This document shows positions 8,095 through 44,287 of a stretch of DNA of 45,588 bases, piece by piece; positions within the stretch are counted from its first letter, which is position 1; each line of letters opens with the position of its first letter. Source of the DNA: a virus (lineage: Duplodnaviria; Heunggongvirae; Uroviricota; Caudoviricetes). The position numbers and the translations under genes are program-made. The stretch lies in the IMG/VR virus record IMGVR_UViG_2531839665_000023; one strand, written 5' to 3'. The notes below the pieces were generated by a model. The model was not told where the DNA came from and searched no databases. It worked only from the letters and a program-made list of their open reading frames with translations.

Positions 8095-8927
8095 ACAGTT
8101 TAACGGCAAATAACCGTTTGTCGCAACAGCTGGTGGTCAGTGTCGCTGAACACCTGTTGTTACGGCATGAATGCAGATTACCAAATCACCTGGCTGTAAG
8201 TAACCACAGAGAACTTTACCTGACTGTGGGGGGCGAGTTGTGCGGGAACTTAACCGCTGGTTTCGTGACGGAAGAGGGCTTTATGTCCATGTTATTCGTT
8301 GGGAACCAGAAACACAGCGCGTTATCTATCTTCGCAAAGACTACCCGCATGAGTGCTTTAGTCCTTTGTGGAAATTCAGGCGTGATTTTGTTGAGTGTGA
8401 AGGACCACCAGCACATTGATTCTGCCATTCCGGGACGTTACACTGTTCAGGCACCTTATAAAGCGGGTGCCGGGATTGGCGTCCTGGAATTGATCAAGGC
8501 GATATATGACGCGCCAGCGTCTTTTTTATCGTCCGCATTTGCTCACATCAAAGTTATGGTGGGCTGGGCGGGGGCATCGAAAGATGCGCCGGTTTCCTTG
8601 ATCACCGGTTACGCCAACCCCGTTCAGTTCACCACCAGCGAAATTGGCGTTTCCGGTGGTGGAAGTATTTCACCGATCAAGGAGGCTGCCATCATGGCTA
8701 CTGTCCCAGCCCTCACTCGTCTGAATGATGAAGACTTACATAAACTCAGTTATGTAACAACTGCACTACGTGCTCTGCGCAAGGTAACTCTTTCGGATCC
8801 GCAGGCGCATCAGGTTCTGGTAGAAACCCTTCTTAACTTGCAGGCTGAACGTATCCGTTTGGTGGATAAGGCTAATTTTCATATTCACCGTCTCCTGAAT
8901 ATCAGCGGAGGGCATCGTCATGCTTAA
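8091..8927 (+). CDS. Hypothetical protein; ORF of doubtful extent
   Basis: Track ORF; N-terminal third is low-complexity and an alternative frame (8240-8419) reads more protein-like; C-terminal part more convincing. Confidence 0.35.
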   Translation: MNSLTANNRLSQQLVVSVAEHLLLRHECRLPNHLAVSNHRELYLTVGGELCGNLTAGFVTEEGFMSMLFVGNQKHSALSIFAKTTRMSALVLCGNSGVILLSVKDHQHIDSAIPGRYTVQAPYKAGAGIGVLELIKAIYDAPASFLSSAFAHIKVMVGWAGASKDAPVSLITGYANPVQFTTSEIGVSGGGSISPIKEAAIMATVPALTRLNDEDLHKLSYVTTALRALRKVTLSDPQAHQVLVETLLNLQAERIRLVDKANFHIHRLLNISGGHRHA

Positions 8928-15447: not shown

Positions 15448-15747
15448 AAAAATTCCTTAATACTGATAACTGGGCGCACTATACACACGTTCCTGAAGAA
15501 AGCTATAGTTTTTTGATGGGGTTGAAGATGGCTGGATGTCTAAAATAAACATTGCTTCATATGTTCAACTATGCGTTAATGATTGCGTCGGTTTGAAGAA
15601 CAGACGATATACGAAGTAGTTTACTAAAGCAGTTCTCATTTCAGGTGTTATTCACTTATTCCTTCTTTGAGTCTCTCCAATTAAGTACGAAGTCGTTTCT
15701 GTTATACAAGCCATTTATGCCGAAAGGCTCAAGTTAAGGAATGTAGA

Positions 15748-15963
15748 ATGTCAAATAAAATGACTGGTTTAGTAAAATGGTTTAACGCTGATAAAGGTTT
15801 TGGCTTTATTTCTCCTGTTGATGGTAGTAAAGATGTGTTTGTGCATTTTTCTGCGATTCAGAATGATAATTTTCGAACCTTATTTGAAGGTCAAAAGGTT
15901 ACCTTCTCTGTAGAGAGTGGTGCTAAAGGTCCTGCAGCAGCAAATGTCATAATTACTGATTAA
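15748..15963 (+). CDS. cspB: Cold-shock protein, CspB-like
   Basis: 71 aa; [21 protein letters not shown] with RNP motifs; csp-type leader with GCCGAAAGGC box before the Shine-Dalgarno. Confidence 0.9.
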
Positions 15964-16245
15964 AATTCATAGTTTGTCTGTATACGATAACGAAGAAGGC
16001 TGATGCCTGAGTGGAGATACAGACTGAGTGGTGAATATTGGATCTCTTTAATAAATAGTAAGGAGGTCCAATACATGAAACAATGGCCAGCATATTTGGC
16101 AATAACTTAATCAGGAAAAGTATGCTAACCATTGTGGTGAAGTGCAGGTTTGCTGCATGAATAGTTTTACAGCAGAAGCTAACTGCTGGCATAGCAAAAC
16201 AAAGTGCGTAAGTGGATGACTCCCACAAAAAGTACCACAATATTA

Positions 16246-16715: not shown

Positions 16716-16931
16716 ATGAAATCAATGGATAAGTTAACAACAGGTATCGCCTATGGCACATCGGCTGGTAATGCTGGTTTCTGGGCATTGCAGTTACTCG
16801 ATAAAGTAACTCCGTCACAGTGGGCTGCAATCGGTGTGCTGGGTAGTCTGGTTTTTGGCCTGCTGACGTATCTGACAAACCTTTATTTCAAGATTAAAGA
16901 AGACAAGCGTAAGGTTGCGAGAAGAGAGTAA
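16716..16931 (+). CDS. Class II pinholin, S21-like, with dual-start motif
   Basis: 71 aa; MKSMDKL dual start; two TM segments; strong resemblance to phage 21 S as recalled. Confidence 0.85.
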
Positions 16932-16935
16932 TCCA

Positions 16936-17487
16936 ATGACACAAGACTATGAACTGGTTGTGAAAGGAGTCCGCAATTTTGAGAATAAAGTGGCGGTAAC
17001 TGTAGCCTTACGGGACAAAAAACGCTTTGACGGTGAAATTTTTGACCTGGACATCTCGCTGGACCGTGTTGAAGGTGCCGCGCTGGAGTTTTATGAGGCA
17101 GCAGCCAGAATGAGAATCAGACAGGTATTCCTGGATGTTGCTGCCGGGTTATGTGTAGGGGATGAGCAGTCGCCGGAAAAGCGCCCCATAATTTTAGAGG
17201 CGCAGAATGTGTGGATAACCTACAAAGGAAAGCTACCGGGAAGAATTACTGGTTCTCTGAAGACGCCACCGACGGCATTGCGGTCAGAAAAAGATGATAT
17301 TGAATCGCCCATTGAAAAACTGGAGGGCAGCGTCGCTGATCTGAATAAAAAATTGTCGGTGCTGATCCCTTCTGAAGATGAAAAAAAACGCCGCGATGAG
17401 CAGTTTGCGGCGTTTTACGATTATTGCATTGAAGTTACTCGCAGGAATTTTGTGAAGATTTTTGAGGAGGGTAAATCTCTTCAGTAA
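16936..17487 (+). CDS. Hypothetical lysis-cassette protein (DUF1327/YdfR-like by position)
   Basis: ATG at 16936 directly after the holin stop; 183 aa; family assignment tentative. Confidence 0.55.
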   Translation: MTQDYELVVKGVRNFENKVAVTVALRDKKRFDGEIFDLDISLDRVEGAALEFYEAAARMRIRQVFLDVAAGLCVGDEQSPEKRPIILEAQNVWITYKGKLPGRITGSLKTPPTALRSEKDDIESPIEKLEGSVADLNKKLSVLIPSEDEKKRRDEQFAAFYDYCIEVTRRNFVKIFEEGKSLQ

Positions 17488-17695
17488 GCTTAATGGCGGA
17501 CGCTGCAATTAATTCAGGAAGGTCCGCAAGGTCATCTGTCAGTGGATATGATGAAAAATCGGCGGCAGTTCTGTTAAGAAGCGCTTTAACTAATTCCTTT
17601 TCCTTCTCCGGCAACAAGTTGATTAGAGCTACGACTGCTTGCCTGAGTGCGATTAAATCAGCAAAAGTTTGTTTTGGTAGATTTGTGTAATCCAT
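17435..17695 (-). CDS. Hypothetical acidic small protein, counter-oriented within lysis cassette
   Basis: 86 aa from the ATG at 17695 preceded by GAGGTG Shine-Dalgarno on the minus strand. Confidence 0.5.
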   Translation of the reverse strand: MDYTNLPKQTFADLIALRQAVVALINLLPEKEKELVKALLNRTAADFSSYPLTDDLADLPELIAASAIKLTEEIYPPQKSSQNSCE

Positions 17696-17808
17696 AGTCA
17701 CCTCTGTGTTTATCAGATTGACATCCTCCTCCCGCCAGTGCCCATCACTGGTGAGGTAAGATTTAACATATCCGGGGATTTGAAGCCGATAAATCCTGAT
17801 AAATATCC

Positions 17809-18836
<1,028 letters not shown>

Positions 18837-19199
18837 ATTAATATTAAATCGGATTATTTTTAGCGCTGAATGTGAAATTTAAATAAAAAGGACTCTTCCA
18901 TGAGTCAAAATCCTTGAAATCTTAAGGGTAAGATAAAAGGTCATTAGACAGAATGACACGTTTTATTAATAAATAAAGCTATTGTTTCATTCGTGTGTTT
19001 TTCTTTACAAAAGTAATCCTTGCTATGGTTGGTTAATCATGCGTTAATGGTGTTCTGGTTTGTTACAAAATTATCTGAAGCAGTCATTGTTATAATTTTA
19101 TTATTTGTACCTCTTGAGATCTCCTTGTTGGTTTTTCTCTCTGATATTTTTTTTCGGACCATTCTGCCCAAGGGCTAACTTCTTCAAAAGGTAATAATG

Positions 19200-19412
19200 A
19201 TGTCTAACAAAATGACTGGTTTAGTGAAATGGTTTAACCCTGAAAAAGGTTTTGGTTTCATCACGCCGAAAGATGGTAGCAAAGATGTGTTTGTCCATTT
19301 CTCAGTTATTCAGAGCAACGATTTCAAAACGTTAACTGAGAATCAGGAAGTCGAATTTGGTATTGAGAACGGACCTAAAGGCCCCGCGGCTGTTCATGTA
19401 GTGGCACTTTGA
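19200..19412 (+). CDS. cspI: Cold-shock protein, CspI-like
   Basis: 70 aa; [34 protein letters not shown]. Confidence 0.9.
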
Positions 19413-19616
19413 GGTAGAAAATATTACAAACCATATTCACTTTAGATGCCCGTGTTGCCATGGTTCTCAGTATAGAACATCATCTTTTGATGTTTCTGAC
19501 AGGAATCCTTTCGGGGCAAAATGTATCTTTTGTAAATCAATGATGATTACATTTGATAATATTTCACAATACTTAAATGTTAGCCGTCTGTCGTTAGATT
19601 TAAGAAAGTGAAAATG

Positions 19617-43712: not shown

Positions 43713-44287
43713 TGGCATTCAGAATGAGTGAACAACCACGGACCATAAAAATTTATAATCTGCTGGCCGGAACTAATGAATTTATTGGTGAAGGTGACGC
43801 ATATATTCCGCCTCATACAGGTCTGCCAGCAAACAGTACCGATATTGCACCGCCAGATATTCCGGCAGGCTTCGTGGCTGTTTTCAACAGTGATGAGGCA
43901 TCGTGGCATCTCGTTGAAGACCATCGGGGTAAAACGGTTTATGACGTAGCGTCAGGGGACGCGTTATTTATTTCTGAACTCGGTCCGTTACCGGAAAATG
44001 TTACCTGGTTATCGCCGGAAGGGGAGTTTCAGAAGTGGAACGGCACAGCCTGGGTGAAAGATGCAGAAGCAGAAAAACTGTTCCGGATCCGGGAGGCGGA
44101 AGAAACAAAAAACAGCCTGATGCAGGTAGCCAGTGAGCATATTGCGCCGCTTCAGGATGCTGCAGATCTGGAAATTGCAACGGAGGAAGAAATCTCGTTG
44201 CTGGAAGCATGGAAAAAGTATCGGGTATTGCTGAACCGTGTTGATACGTCAACTGCACAGGATATTGAATGGCCAGCACTGCCGTAG
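43712..44287 (+). CDS. tfa: Tail fibre assembly protein Tfa
   Basis: 191 aa; near-identical to lambda Tfa as recalled ([24 protein letters not shown]); TAATG overlap with stf stop. Confidence 0.9.

What the first reader, a model, noticed from the sequence alone, without database searches (positions are those of the whole stretch)
17435..17695. Counter-oriented acidic small gene inside the lysis cassette
An 86-aa acidic protein with a strong GAGGTG ribosome-binding site is encoded on the opposite strand between the holin-adjacent gene and the endolysin, overlapping the 3' end of the upstream plus-strand ORF. An antisense gene here could influence lysis timing or be an independent moron.
Basis: seen in the sequence. 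Interest (0 to 1): 0.35.

Follow-up and report, generated by a model that had tools for sequence, protein, structure and literature searches.

The report
Small backwards accessory gene in lysis cassette
The 86-codon backwards gene between the holin-side gene and the endolysin of this E. coli prophage is real and already annotated as a hypothetical protein; it looks like an ordinary self-contained accessory ("moron") gene of unknown function in a swap-prone slot, not a part of the lysis machinery.

Summary
An 86-aa ORF lies on the minus strand at 17435-17695 (ATG, GAGGTG Shine-Dalgarno, pI 4.6). It sits between a YdfR/DUF1327-like gene and the SAR endolysin and overlaps the former's 3' end by 53 nt. 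RefSeq already annotates it (WP_001306174.1, hypothetical protein) and it matches PHROG 2572, function unknown.

It is probably a real protein gene. Homologues of 86-93 aa at 41-49% identity occur in other Escherichia and Salmonella prophages, always counter-oriented in the late operon. They share a Shine-Dalgarno site, three predicted helices, an upstream block TATTTATCAGGnTTTATC-N17-TATKKT and a downstream hairpin (plus U8 here).

K-12 Qin has ydfR and rrrQ adjacent with no insert. The same upstream block precedes at least six unrelated counter-oriented ORF families, or nothing, at this slot in other phages. The gene has lower GC and atypical codon usage.

Best reading: an autonomous moron encoding a small cytoplasmic helical protein. 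Its function is unknown and the promoter is unproven. Nothing supports a lysis-timing role. One unexplained point is that the family always overlaps the tail of one conserved late-strand protein module.

The parts
17435..17695 (-). CDS of the 86-aa protein (called B here); ATG 17695-17693, stop TAA 17437-17435. Predicted helices at residues 8-27, 30-48 and 56-74, with a disordered C-terminal tail of about 12 residues.
   Evidence: RefSeq CDS WP_001306174.1. PHROG 2572 at E=1.2e-53. AlphaFold2 pLDDT 72 and 71. Family alignments A2 and A5.
17699..17704 (-). Shine-Dalgarno GAGGTG, 3 nt before the ATG. Homologues have AAGGA about 8 nt before their start.
17765..17805 (-). Conserved promoter-like block TATTTATCAGGATTTATC-N17-TATGTT. 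Proposed -35 is TTTATC at 17793-17788 and proposed -10 is TATGTT at 17770-17765. The block abuts the endolysin ATG (17809) on the other strand. The promoter function is inferred, not shown.
   Evidence: Single exact match in the window, 0 expected in shuffles. The block is invariant while the 17-nt spacer varies across 8 divergent loci. It precedes unrelated counter-oriented ORFs in other phages. The generic promoter scan did not flag it (7 of 12 consensus matches).
17725..17760 (-). Predicted 5' leader stem-loop, core CCAGTG-ATGGG-CACTGG at 17751-17735. A related stem occurs in the leaders of several other cargo types.
   Evidence: MFE -22.3 kcal/mol for the 71-nt leader, z=-2.45. Searches show GCCAGTGGTGGGCACTGGC in the leaders of the 233-aa, m104 and 91-aa types.
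17381..17416 (-). Intrinsic-terminator-like hairpin AAAACGCCGC/GCGGCGTTTT with a 12-nt loop, then a T8 run. It starts about 19 nt after the B stop codon and lies inside codons EKKRRDEQFAAF of the plus-strand gene.
   Evidence: -14.6 kcal/mol, z=-2.3; 94% of cells paired in 8 divergent sequences, with one G-C to A-U compensatory pair in one clade. The T-run is strong only in the E. coli subfamily. The scan tool missed it because its loop limit is 8 nt.
17435..17487 (.). 53-nt convergent 3'-3' overlap of B with the YdfR-like gene. Homologues overlap by 59 nt.
   Evidence: This segment is 100% identical between the window and L005/L088, whose holin is about 76% identical.
16936..17487 (+). YdfR-like late gene, 183 aa from ATG 16936. 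It consists of a DUF1327 domain plus a C-terminal module of about 70 aa (called module A here, 17272-17487). Module A exists as a free-standing 73-aa gene in Salmonella prophages.
   Evidence: PF07041. (PHROG 2091, full length 1-183).. PGAP marks it as a partial pseudogene, but the frame is intact and the codon score of the extension is 0.41 per codon.
17273..17764 (.). Variable cassette relative to prophage L006, which carries a different 90-aa cargo. Relative to K-12 Qin the non-homologous stretch is 17142-17798.
17493..17690 (+). 65-codon mirror ORF on the late strand, third codon positions in register with B. Judged a shadow ORF, not a gene.
   Evidence: No Shine-Dalgarno site. Codon score -0.22 per codon against 0.00 for B. 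The equivalent frame has an internal stop in Salmonella loci and no conserved start. Lower identity and BLOSUM score than B in all 6 cross-subfamily comparisons.

Best explanation
The 86-aa ORF is a genuine protein-coding accessory gene (a moron) inserted between the ydfR-like gene and the SAR endolysin gene of a Qin/phage-21-type lysis cassette.

Proposed working, step by step:
1. (Inferred) It is transcribed leftward, against the late operon. The promoter would lie in the conserved block TATTTATCAGGATTTATC-N17-TATGTT (17805-17765), which abuts the endolysin start codon.
2. (Inferred) The transcript has a structured leader of about 63 nt.
3. (Shown in sequence) It is translated from a strong Shine-Dalgarno site and ATG.
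4. (Shown in sequence, function inferred) The transcript ends at a hairpin plus U8 (17416-17381) embedded in the coding sequence of the ydfR-like gene.
5. (Predicted) The product is a soluble, mildly acidic protein of three alpha-helices with a disordered tail. It has no enzymatic, DNA-binding or membrane signature, so it most likely acts by binding another protein of the host or of a phage.
6. (Inferred) Q-antiterminated late transcription runs head-on across the promoter and gene. Expression is therefore expected in the lysogen or early in infection, and to be suppressed late.

The slot is a recombination hot-spot where unrelated small cargo genes are exchanged behind the same upstream block. 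The gene's biological role is unknown. It is not a core lysis function.
For: Real coding gene:
- A family of 86-93-aa homologues at 41-49% identity occurs in Escherichia and Salmonella.
- The frame is intact in all 9 representative loci, while the mirror frame has an internal stop in the Salmonella loci and no conserved start in the three-frame translations.
- Substitutions are more conservative in this frame than in the mirror frame in 6 of 6 cross-subfamily comparisons.
- A Shine-Dalgarno site is conserved.
- dN/dS is 0.28-0.59.
- It has the best codon score of the six frames.
- Three helices are predicted, with pLDDT of 80-85 in the first two and 74-79 in the third.
- PGAP and other pipelines call this gene.

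Insert and moron character:
- K-12 Qin has ydfR-rrrQ adjacent. The window differs over 17142-17798.
- GC is about 42% against about 51% for the endolysin.
- The codon score is about 2 SD below the prophage's long genes.
- The gene segment is 93-100% identical between prophages whose holin and endolysin are 72-87% identical, which points to recent horizontal spread.

Own signals:
- The upstream block is conserved in all subfamilies with a variable spacer. This includes Salmonella loci where it is not next to an endolysin.
- The terminator-like hairpin is conserved, with one compensatory change.

Slot behaviour:
- The same block precedes unrelated ORFs of 90 aa (PHROG 2411), 104 aa (PHROG 1853), about 233 aa, 98 aa, 95 aa and 91 aa.
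- In an unbiased scan of IMG/VR for the block there were 114 usable sites. Counts were 39 m90, 27 m86, 9 m104, 4 of the 233-aa type, 2 each of the 98-aa and 95-aa types, about 6 of the 91-aa type and about 25 empty.

Carried by deposited coliphage genomes (2H10, PhiR12_x, PhiR5_1, PhiR63_1; host fields E. coli K-12, C or ECOR13), not only by chromosomal prophages.

Precedent: genes antisense to prophage lytic genes and transcribed from their own promoters are typical accessory loci (Owen et al. 2020, PMC7067206).
Against: - No expression data were available.
- The proposed promoter matches only 7 of 12 consensus positions and the generic scan did not flag it.
- The same block is also present at about 25 empty sites directly upstream of the endolysin. 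Its conservation could therefore partly serve the endolysin, for example its translation start region, rather than a leftward promoter.
- The U-run after the hairpin is strong only in the E. coli subfamily.
- Purifying selection is modest and cannot be distinguished from the mirror frame by dN/dS.
- Disrupted copies exist: truncated or frameshifted products in the protein collection, an IS3 element about 40 nt from a copy lacking its 3' end and deletions.
- The family is always tied to the tail of module A, which a plain moron model explains only through the embedded terminator.
- No function could be assigned by any library.
Confidence: 0.6

Rival explanations
1. B and module A are a functional pair. 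Module A is the late-strand module of about 70 aa, fused here to DUF1327 and free-standing as 73 aa in Salmonella. B would bind or neutralise module A. Alternatively, the two convergent transcripts would regulate each other through their 53-59-nt 3' overlap.
For: In every context found, B overlaps the last 17-19 codons of a gene ending in the same module. This holds whether that gene is a DUF1327 fusion of 183, 116 or 243 aa, a 144-aa protein, or the 73-aa stand-alone gene after Rz. The overlap is the most conserved stretch. Both partners are predicted or likely helical. The N-terminal 72 residues of K-12 YdfR bind the RNase E catalytic domain (PMC13232886), so the neighbouring gene is not inert.
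Against: Module A occurs without B in Stx phages, continuing into other C-terminal domains. Natural deletions of about 230 nt remove B's upstream block and first 14 codons while the 73-aa gene stays intact. B's overlapping tail is predicted disordered, so the overlap can be explained by B's terminator hairpin being embedded in module A. The convergent arrangement is not that of protein toxin-antitoxin operons.
Confidence: 0.13
2. B is a lysis-timing or lysis-expression regulator. Either the protein or its antisense transcription across the holin-endolysin interval modulates endolysin or YdfR-like expression.
For: It is located inside the lysis cassette. Its proposed promoter overlaps the endolysin translation start region, and its transcript would be fully complementary to the late mRNA between the ydfR-like gene and the endolysin.
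Against: Cassettes of the same type lack it (K-12 Qin; about 25 empty sites) or carry unrelated cargo at the same slot. Salmonella homologues lie after Rz, next to the terminase gene. There is no membrane segment and no similarity to holins, antiholins or spanins. From general knowledge, lysis timing in lambdoid phages is set by the holin, not by the endolysin level.
Confidence: 0.1
3. The ORF is not a functional gene. It would be either a decaying remnant or a fortuitous open frame over a conserved nucleic-acid element. Alternatively the real gene would be the 65-codon plus-strand mirror ORF at 17493-17690.
For: dN/dS and third-position excess are equally good in the mirror frame. The codon score is only 0.00 per codon against 0.29 +/- 0.13 for the prophage's long genes. 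Several disrupted copies exist. The family is narrow and has no known domain.
Against: The frame and length are kept at 41-49% protein identity in two genera. A Shine-Dalgarno site and start codon are conserved. The mirror frame is broken in the Salmonella loci and shows no conserved start codon; in the window it also has no Shine-Dalgarno site. B scores better in all 6 BLOSUM comparisons. A helical fold is predicted with moderate confidence from a single sequence.
Confidence: 0.08

Closest known systems
Morons of lambdoid phages (as defined for HK97/HK022 by Juhala, Hendrix and colleagues; lambda bor and lom are classic examples) - named from general knowledge
   Same: It is an extra gene between two genes that are adjacent in related phages. 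It has its own putative promoter and terminator and a different base composition. It is oriented against the late operon next to the lysis genes, as lambda bor is after Rz.
   Different: Bor and Lom are envelope proteins with known lysogen phenotypes. This product is a small soluble helical protein with no known function. Its terminator lies inside, and its 3' end overlaps, a late gene. Expression in the lysogen has not been shown.
STMMW_20121 of Salmonella prophage ST64B (Owen et al. 2020, PMC7067206)
   Same: It is a gene of unknown function encoded antisense to prophage lytic genes. It is transcribed independently from its own promoter in lysogens and was interpreted as an accessory or regulatory locus.
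   Different: No sequence relationship was tested or implied. For the present gene there is no transcriptome evidence.
PHROG 2572 / RefSeq WP_001306174.1 (hypothetical protein)
   Same: This is the same protein: full-length match at E=1.2e-53 and identical CDS in CFT073, S88 and APEC O1.
   Different: Neither entry carries any functional information.
Convergent, 3'-overlapping type I toxin-antitoxin pairs of Bacillus prophage regions (txpA/RatA, bsrG/SR4) - named from general knowledge
   Same: Two convergent transcription units in a prophage overlap at their 3' ends by tens of nucleotides, which would allow RNA-RNA pairing.
   Different: In those systems one partner is a non-coding RNA and the other a small membrane toxin. 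Here both strands encode soluble proteins. No toxicity is known, and natural deletions of B leave the partner intact.

Membership tests
Moron (autonomous accessory gene of a temperate phage) | Inserted between two genes that are adjacent in related phages | tested here: met
   K-12 Qin has essQ-ydfR-rrrQ with the ydfR stop overlapping the rrrQ start. The window carries 657 nt (17142-17798) in place of 92 nt.
Moron (autonomous accessory gene of a temperate phage) | Own promoter upstream | tested here: inconclusive
   The block TATTTATCAGGnTTTATC-N17-TATKKT is conserved in all subfamilies with a variable spacer. However, it matches only 7 of 12 consensus positions, was not flagged, and also occurs at empty sites.
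Moron (autonomous accessory gene of a temperate phage) | Own factor-independent terminator downstream | tested here: met
   A 10-bp hairpin plus U8 at 17416-17381. The hairpin is conserved with one compensatory pair. This is sequence evidence only.
Moron (autonomous accessory gene of a temperate phage) | Base composition differs from neighbours | tested here: met
   GC is about 0.42 over the gene against about 0.51 in the endolysin. The codon score is about 2 SD below the prophage's long genes.
Moron (autonomous accessory gene of a temperate phage) | Expressed from the repressed prophage | not testable with these tools
   No transcriptome or proteome data were accessible. The literature search by accession found nothing.
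PHROG 2572 | Significant full-length match to the family profile | tested here: met
   E=1.2e-53, residues 1-86 on profile positions 1-86 of 86. The remote homologue P0019 also matches at E=3.5e-27.
Pfam DUF1823 (the label given to this gene in the PhiR12 phage records) | Score at or above the Pfam gathering threshold (25 bits) | tested here: not met
   13.2 bits, E=0.11, covering only residues 12-50. The label in PV340550 is not supported.
Holin, antiholin or spanin lysis proteins | Transmembrane or lipoprotein signal, or a match to lysis-protein families | tested here: not met
   No Pfam or PHROG lysis-family match. GRAVY is -0.11 and the helices are amphipathic, not hydrophobic.
Type II toxin-antitoxin antitoxin | Co-directional operon with a toxin gene, a recognisable antitoxin or DNA-binding domain, and loss that is not tolerated while the toxin is intact | tested here: not met
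   The arrangement is convergent. There is no domain match in Pfam, NCBIfam or PADLOC. Natural deletions of B occur with the partner intact.
DNA-mimic anti-restriction proteins (Ocr/ArdA type) | Very high negative charge density and a matching fold | tested here: not met
   Net charge is only -5.5 and 15% of residues are acidic. There is no significant Foldseek match in PDB or BFVD.
Known anti-phage defence systems (PADLOC) | Match to a defence-system protein model | tested here: not met
   0 families at E<=0.1 for B, its neighbour and three other cargo proteins.

The most novel reading that the evidence does not exclude
The conserved block at the endolysin boundary would be a portable leftward expression platform. 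It would drive a rotating set of at least seven unrelated small cargo proteins in 21/Qin-type lysis cassettes, forming a dedicated accessory-gene slot analogous to defence hot-spots in other prophages. Within that slot the m86 family would be special: it travels as a convergent two-gene unit with a conserved late-strand module, possibly a new kind of lysogen-versus-late-phase switch or inhibitor pair.
Probability: 0.15. Interest if true: 0.55.

Novelty: new member of a known kind. Interest (0 to 1): 0.3.

Why it matters
If expressed in lysogens, this would be one more small prophage protein acting on host or phage physiology. It occurs in about 6% of complete E. coli genomes, including the uropathogen CFT073, S88 and APEC O1, and in some STEC strains. 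More useful than the single gene is the slot. A short conserved block next to the endolysin start marks a place where unrelated small genes are exchanged. That gives a simple sequence handle for collecting uncharacterised accessory genes of lambdoid prophages for functional screens. The work also corrects two annotations: the sub-threshold "DUF1823" label, and the "pseudogene" call on the intact 183-aa YdfR-like gene.

Tried and rejected
- **Function by sequence.** Pfam, NCBIfam and PADLOC gave no match, PHROGs matched only an unknown-function family (PHROG 2572), and a profile search of PDB sequences gave nothing. ABATE and DUF1823 appear only at E of about 0.1.
- **Function by fold.** AlphaFold2 was run with and without an 8-sequence alignment and gave the same three helices (pLDDT 72 and 71, pTM 0.43). 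Foldseek against PDB (best E=9.5) and BFVD (best E=0.85) was uninformative.
- **Hidden plus-strand gene.** I tested whether the plus-strand 65-codon ORF is the C-terminal part of a longer YdfR-like protein (PHROG 1085 is 296 aa). It is not. The long Stx-phage versions stop matching the window at about 17464 and do not match that frame.
- **Strand decision by dN/dS or third-position excess.** This failed because the mirror frame shares wobble positions. Stops, start signals and substitution quality decided it instead.
- **One diverged cargo superfamily.** Several cargo proteins show an 'LP' turn after the first helix, so I tested whether they are related. hhalign probabilities are all below 3% and BLASTP finds nothing. 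Rejected.
- **Long repeat proteins P0021 and P0024** from the exhaustive search were judged spurious repeat or compositional matches.
- **Known RNA families.** Rfam has no match at gathering thresholds in the region. The two sub-threshold hits (E of 0.1-0.2) were dismissed.
- **Literature.** Searches by protein accession or PHROG id found no papers. The Stx-phage lysis-cassette survey PMC8136144 does not discuss this gene.

Full report
**Setting.** The window is a Qin-like lambdoid prophage of E. coli. The 381 nt around the finding are 100% identical to CFT073, S88, APEC O1 and many other strains. The local gene order on the plus (late) strand is as follows:
- cspB
- an S21-type class II holin, 16716-16931 (PF04971)
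- a DUF1327/YdfR-like ORF, 16936-17487
- a lysozyme with an N-terminal SAR-like hydrophobic stretch, 17809-18342 (PF00959)
- an Rz-like DUF2514 gene, 18339-18836
- cspI

The ynfU gene lies on the minus strand.

**The observation.** It has ATG at 17695 and TAA at 17437-17435, giving 86 aa. GAGGTG lies at 17704-17699. The protein has pI 4.57 and net charge -5.5, so it is mildly rather than strikingly acidic. It overlaps the last 53 nt of the YdfR-like ORF. Open frames of this size are common here, so the ORF alone proves nothing. However, the same CDS is annotated by PGAP as hypothetical protein WP_001306174.1. It matches PHROG 2572 over its full length at E=1.2e-53, function unknown. The DNA occurs in 314 of 5426 complete E. 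coli genomes. It also occurs in eight deposited coliphage genome records whose host fields name E. coli K-12, C or ECOR13.

**Is it a gene, and on which strand?** Within E. coli the gene varies by at most about 6-7% at the DNA level.
- Fourteen alleles show 33 variable sites, 15 of them at third codon positions.
- The synonymous to non-synonymous count is 14:21, against 23% synonymous expected.
- Pairwise dN/dS is 0.28-0.59.

These figures are no better than for the plus-strand frame whose wobble positions coincide with it, the 65-codon ORF at 17493-17690. They therefore do not decide the strand. An exhaustive HMMER search then found remote homologues of 89-93 aa (P0019, P0020). A profile search added Salmonella members (P0025-P0028). 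These are 41-49% identical to the window protein. Across these subfamilies:
- The minus-strand frame is intact in all nine representative loci.
- The mirror frame has an internal stop in the Salmonella loci and no conserved start.
- Identity and BLOSUM62 scores are higher in the minus frame in all six cross-subfamily comparisons.
- A Shine-Dalgarno site precedes every start.

The window ORF has the best codon-usage score of the six frames. At 0.00 per codon it is about 2 SD below the prophage's long genes, which score 0.29 +/- 0.13. AlphaFold2 predicts three helices (residues 8-27, 30-48 and 56-74) and a disordered tail, with pLDDT of about 72 with or without an alignment. I conclude it is a real protein gene on the minus strand, under modest constraint.

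**It is an insert.** K-12 Qin has essQ-ydfR-rrrQ with the ydfR stop overlapping the rrrQ start. Homology with the window breaks at 17141 and resumes at 17799. Another prophage (L006) is homologous up to 17272 and again from 17765. In between it carries a different counter-oriented 90-aa ORF with no similarity to ours. GC is about 42% over the gene against about 51% in the endolysin. Between prophages whose holin and endolysin are only 72-87% identical, the gene segment is 93-100% identical. Given the modest dN/dS, this looks like recent horizontal spread of a cassette.

**Signals of its own.**
- *Upstream.* In all subfamilies there is an invariant block, ATGnATATTTATCAGGnTTTATC. After a 17-nt spacer of variable sequence comes TAT(G/T)(T/G)T. 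In the window the block is at 17805-17765, a unique match with none expected by chance. I read TTTATC at 17793-17788 and TATGTT at 17770-17765 as the -35 and -10 hexamers of a leftward promoter.
- *Caveat on the promoter.* This is an inference from conservation. The consensus match is weak (7 of 12 positions) and the generic scan did not report it.
- *Leader.* The predicted leader of about 63 nt folds into a 5' stem-loop.
- *Downstream.* Starting about 19 nt after the stop codon there is a 10-bp hairpin followed by T8, at 17416-17381. The hairpin is kept in eight divergent sequences: 94% of cells are paired, with one G-C to A-U compensatory pair. The U-run is strong only in the E. coli subfamily. 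The hairpin lies inside the plus-strand codons EKKRRDEQFAAF.

**The slot.** The same upstream block precedes unrelated counter-oriented ORFs in other phages:
- 90 aa (PHROG 2411)
- 104 aa (PHROG 1853)
- about 233 aa
- 98 aa (PHROG 25324)
- 95 aa (PHROG 10490)
- 91 aa (PHROG 18136)

All are of unknown function, and all are unrelated by hhalign, with probabilities below 3%. A scan of IMG/VR for the block, which is unbiased with respect to cargo and was capped at 120 stretches, gave 114 usable sites:

| Cargo behind the block | Sites |
|---|---|
| m90 (90 aa) | 39 |
| m86 (this family) | 27 |
| m104 (104 aa) | 9 |
| 233-aa type | 4 |
| 91-aa type | about 6 |
| 98-aa type | 2 |
| 95-aa type | 2 |
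| empty (YdfR end abuts the block) | about 25 |

The block is absent from K-12 Qin and from Stx2_95, which have no counter-oriented gene. The empty sites are a caveat. The block may also serve the endolysin on the other strand. In Salmonella-type loci, however, the block accompanies the m86-family gene to a position after Rz, away from any endolysin start.

**The unexplained linkage.** In every context the m86-family gene overlaps, by 53-59 nt, the last codons of a late-strand gene ending in one conserved module. That module reads ...E(K/Q)KRRDE..AA.Y...V.RNF.K...Q in the window and its Salmonella counterpart, and in a diverged form (...RHHEN..AF...F..L...Q) in the third clade. The module appears in four forms:
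- fused to DUF1327, as here (183 aa; also 116 and 243 aa)
- within a 144-aa protein
- as a free-standing 73-aa gene after Rz in Salmonella prophages
- without the counter-oriented gene in Stx phages, where it continues into other C-terminal domains

Natural deletions of about 230 nt remove the upstream block and the first 14 codons of the counter-oriented gene while leaving the 73-aa gene intact. The simplest account is that the cargo's terminator hairpin and its disordered C-terminal tail are embedded in this module, so the two travel together. A functional pairing cannot be excluded. [quoted passage not shown]

**Function.** No library gave a function:
- Pfam, NCBIfam and PADLOC gave no match, and PHROGs matched only unknown-function family 2572
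- PDB sequences
- Foldseek against PDB and BFVD
- Rfam
- literature searched by accession

The 'DUF1823' label used in the PhiR12 phage records rests on a sub-threshold hit of 13.2 bits against a cut-off of 25. I commit to the following as most likely. The gene is an autonomous moron, expressed from its own leftward promoter when late transcription is off. It encodes a soluble three-helix protein that acts by binding a protein partner. It is not part of the lysis mechanism. This matches the pattern described for prophage accessory loci encoded antisense to lytic genes (PMC7067206).

**Verdict.** The gene is already annotated as a hypothetical protein, so the finding is a new member of a known kind. 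It has a modest extra point of interest in the shared upstream block and the cargo-swapping slot.

Noticed in passing
window 16936-17487 (+): PGAP marks the YdfR-like gene as an incomplete pseudogene (missing C-terminus). However, the 183-aa frame is intact, matches PHROG 2091 end to end and has a good codon score. It is a mosaic of DUF1327 plus a module of about 70 aa. Relatives carry C-terminal extensions giving total lengths of 103, 114, 183, 243, 263 and 329 aa; in Stx2_12E129 the module instead starts a 213-aa protein that lacks the DUF1327 N-terminus.
   Followed up: partly
window 17765-17805 (-) and loci L006, L091, L093, L094, L098, L107-L226: The short conserved block TATTTATCAGGnTTTATC-N17-TATKKT next to the endolysin start marks a slot. 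The slot holds at least seven unrelated counter-oriented small ORF families, all of unknown function. About a fifth of sites are empty.
   Followed up: yes
L094 1558-1779, L227 2501-2722 and similar Salmonella loci: A free-standing 73-aa gene directly after Rz (DUF2514) in Salmonella lambdoid prophages is homologous to the C-terminal module of the window's YdfR-like protein. It has no family assignment in Pfam or PHROGs.
   Followed up: partly
L091 1747-2448 (-), Stx1a-converting phage Stx1_499: An unannotated 233-aa counter-oriented ORF follows the same upstream block and overlaps the 3' third of the annotated 263-aa plus-strand 'hypothetical protein'. The deposited annotation may have the wrong strand for that stretch.
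   Followed up: no
window 17594-17608 (codons EKEKE of the minus-strand gene): Alleles differ by in-frame gain or loss of a 6-nt EK unit (P0001 has +EK, P0004 has -EK). This looks like slippage in a short GAA/AAG repeat.
   Followed up: no
L090 (E. coli 2013C-3277) 245-1693: An IS3-family transposase gene ends about 40 nt from a copy of the gene that lacks its 3' 68 nt (query positions 69-261 remain), so an IS3 insertion probably truncated it. The product lists also show other frameshifted or truncated copies.
   Followed up: partly
window 8451-8527 and 8552-8639 (+): Rfam matches above gathering score to isrK (Hfq-binding RNA) and C4 antisense RNA, side by side in the early region of the prophage.
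   Followed up: no
window 44055-44253 (+): Full-length Rfam match to the IS009 sRNA (221 bits) near the tail-fibre end of the prophage.
   Followed up: no
window 15587-16026 and 19053-19458 (+): Two cspA-type thermoregulator matches covering the cspB and cspI leaders and most or all of their coding sequences bracket the lysis cassette. The cassette is therefore flanked by cold-shock morons (cspB/cspF upstream; cspI and ynfQ downstream).
   Followed up: no
window 16936-17150 (+) / literature: A 2026 paper (PMC13232886) reports that the first 72 residues of K-12 YdfR bind the RNase E catalytic domain and that YdfR co-purifies with RNA. The window protein is 82% identical to K-12 YdfR over those residues.
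   Followed up: no
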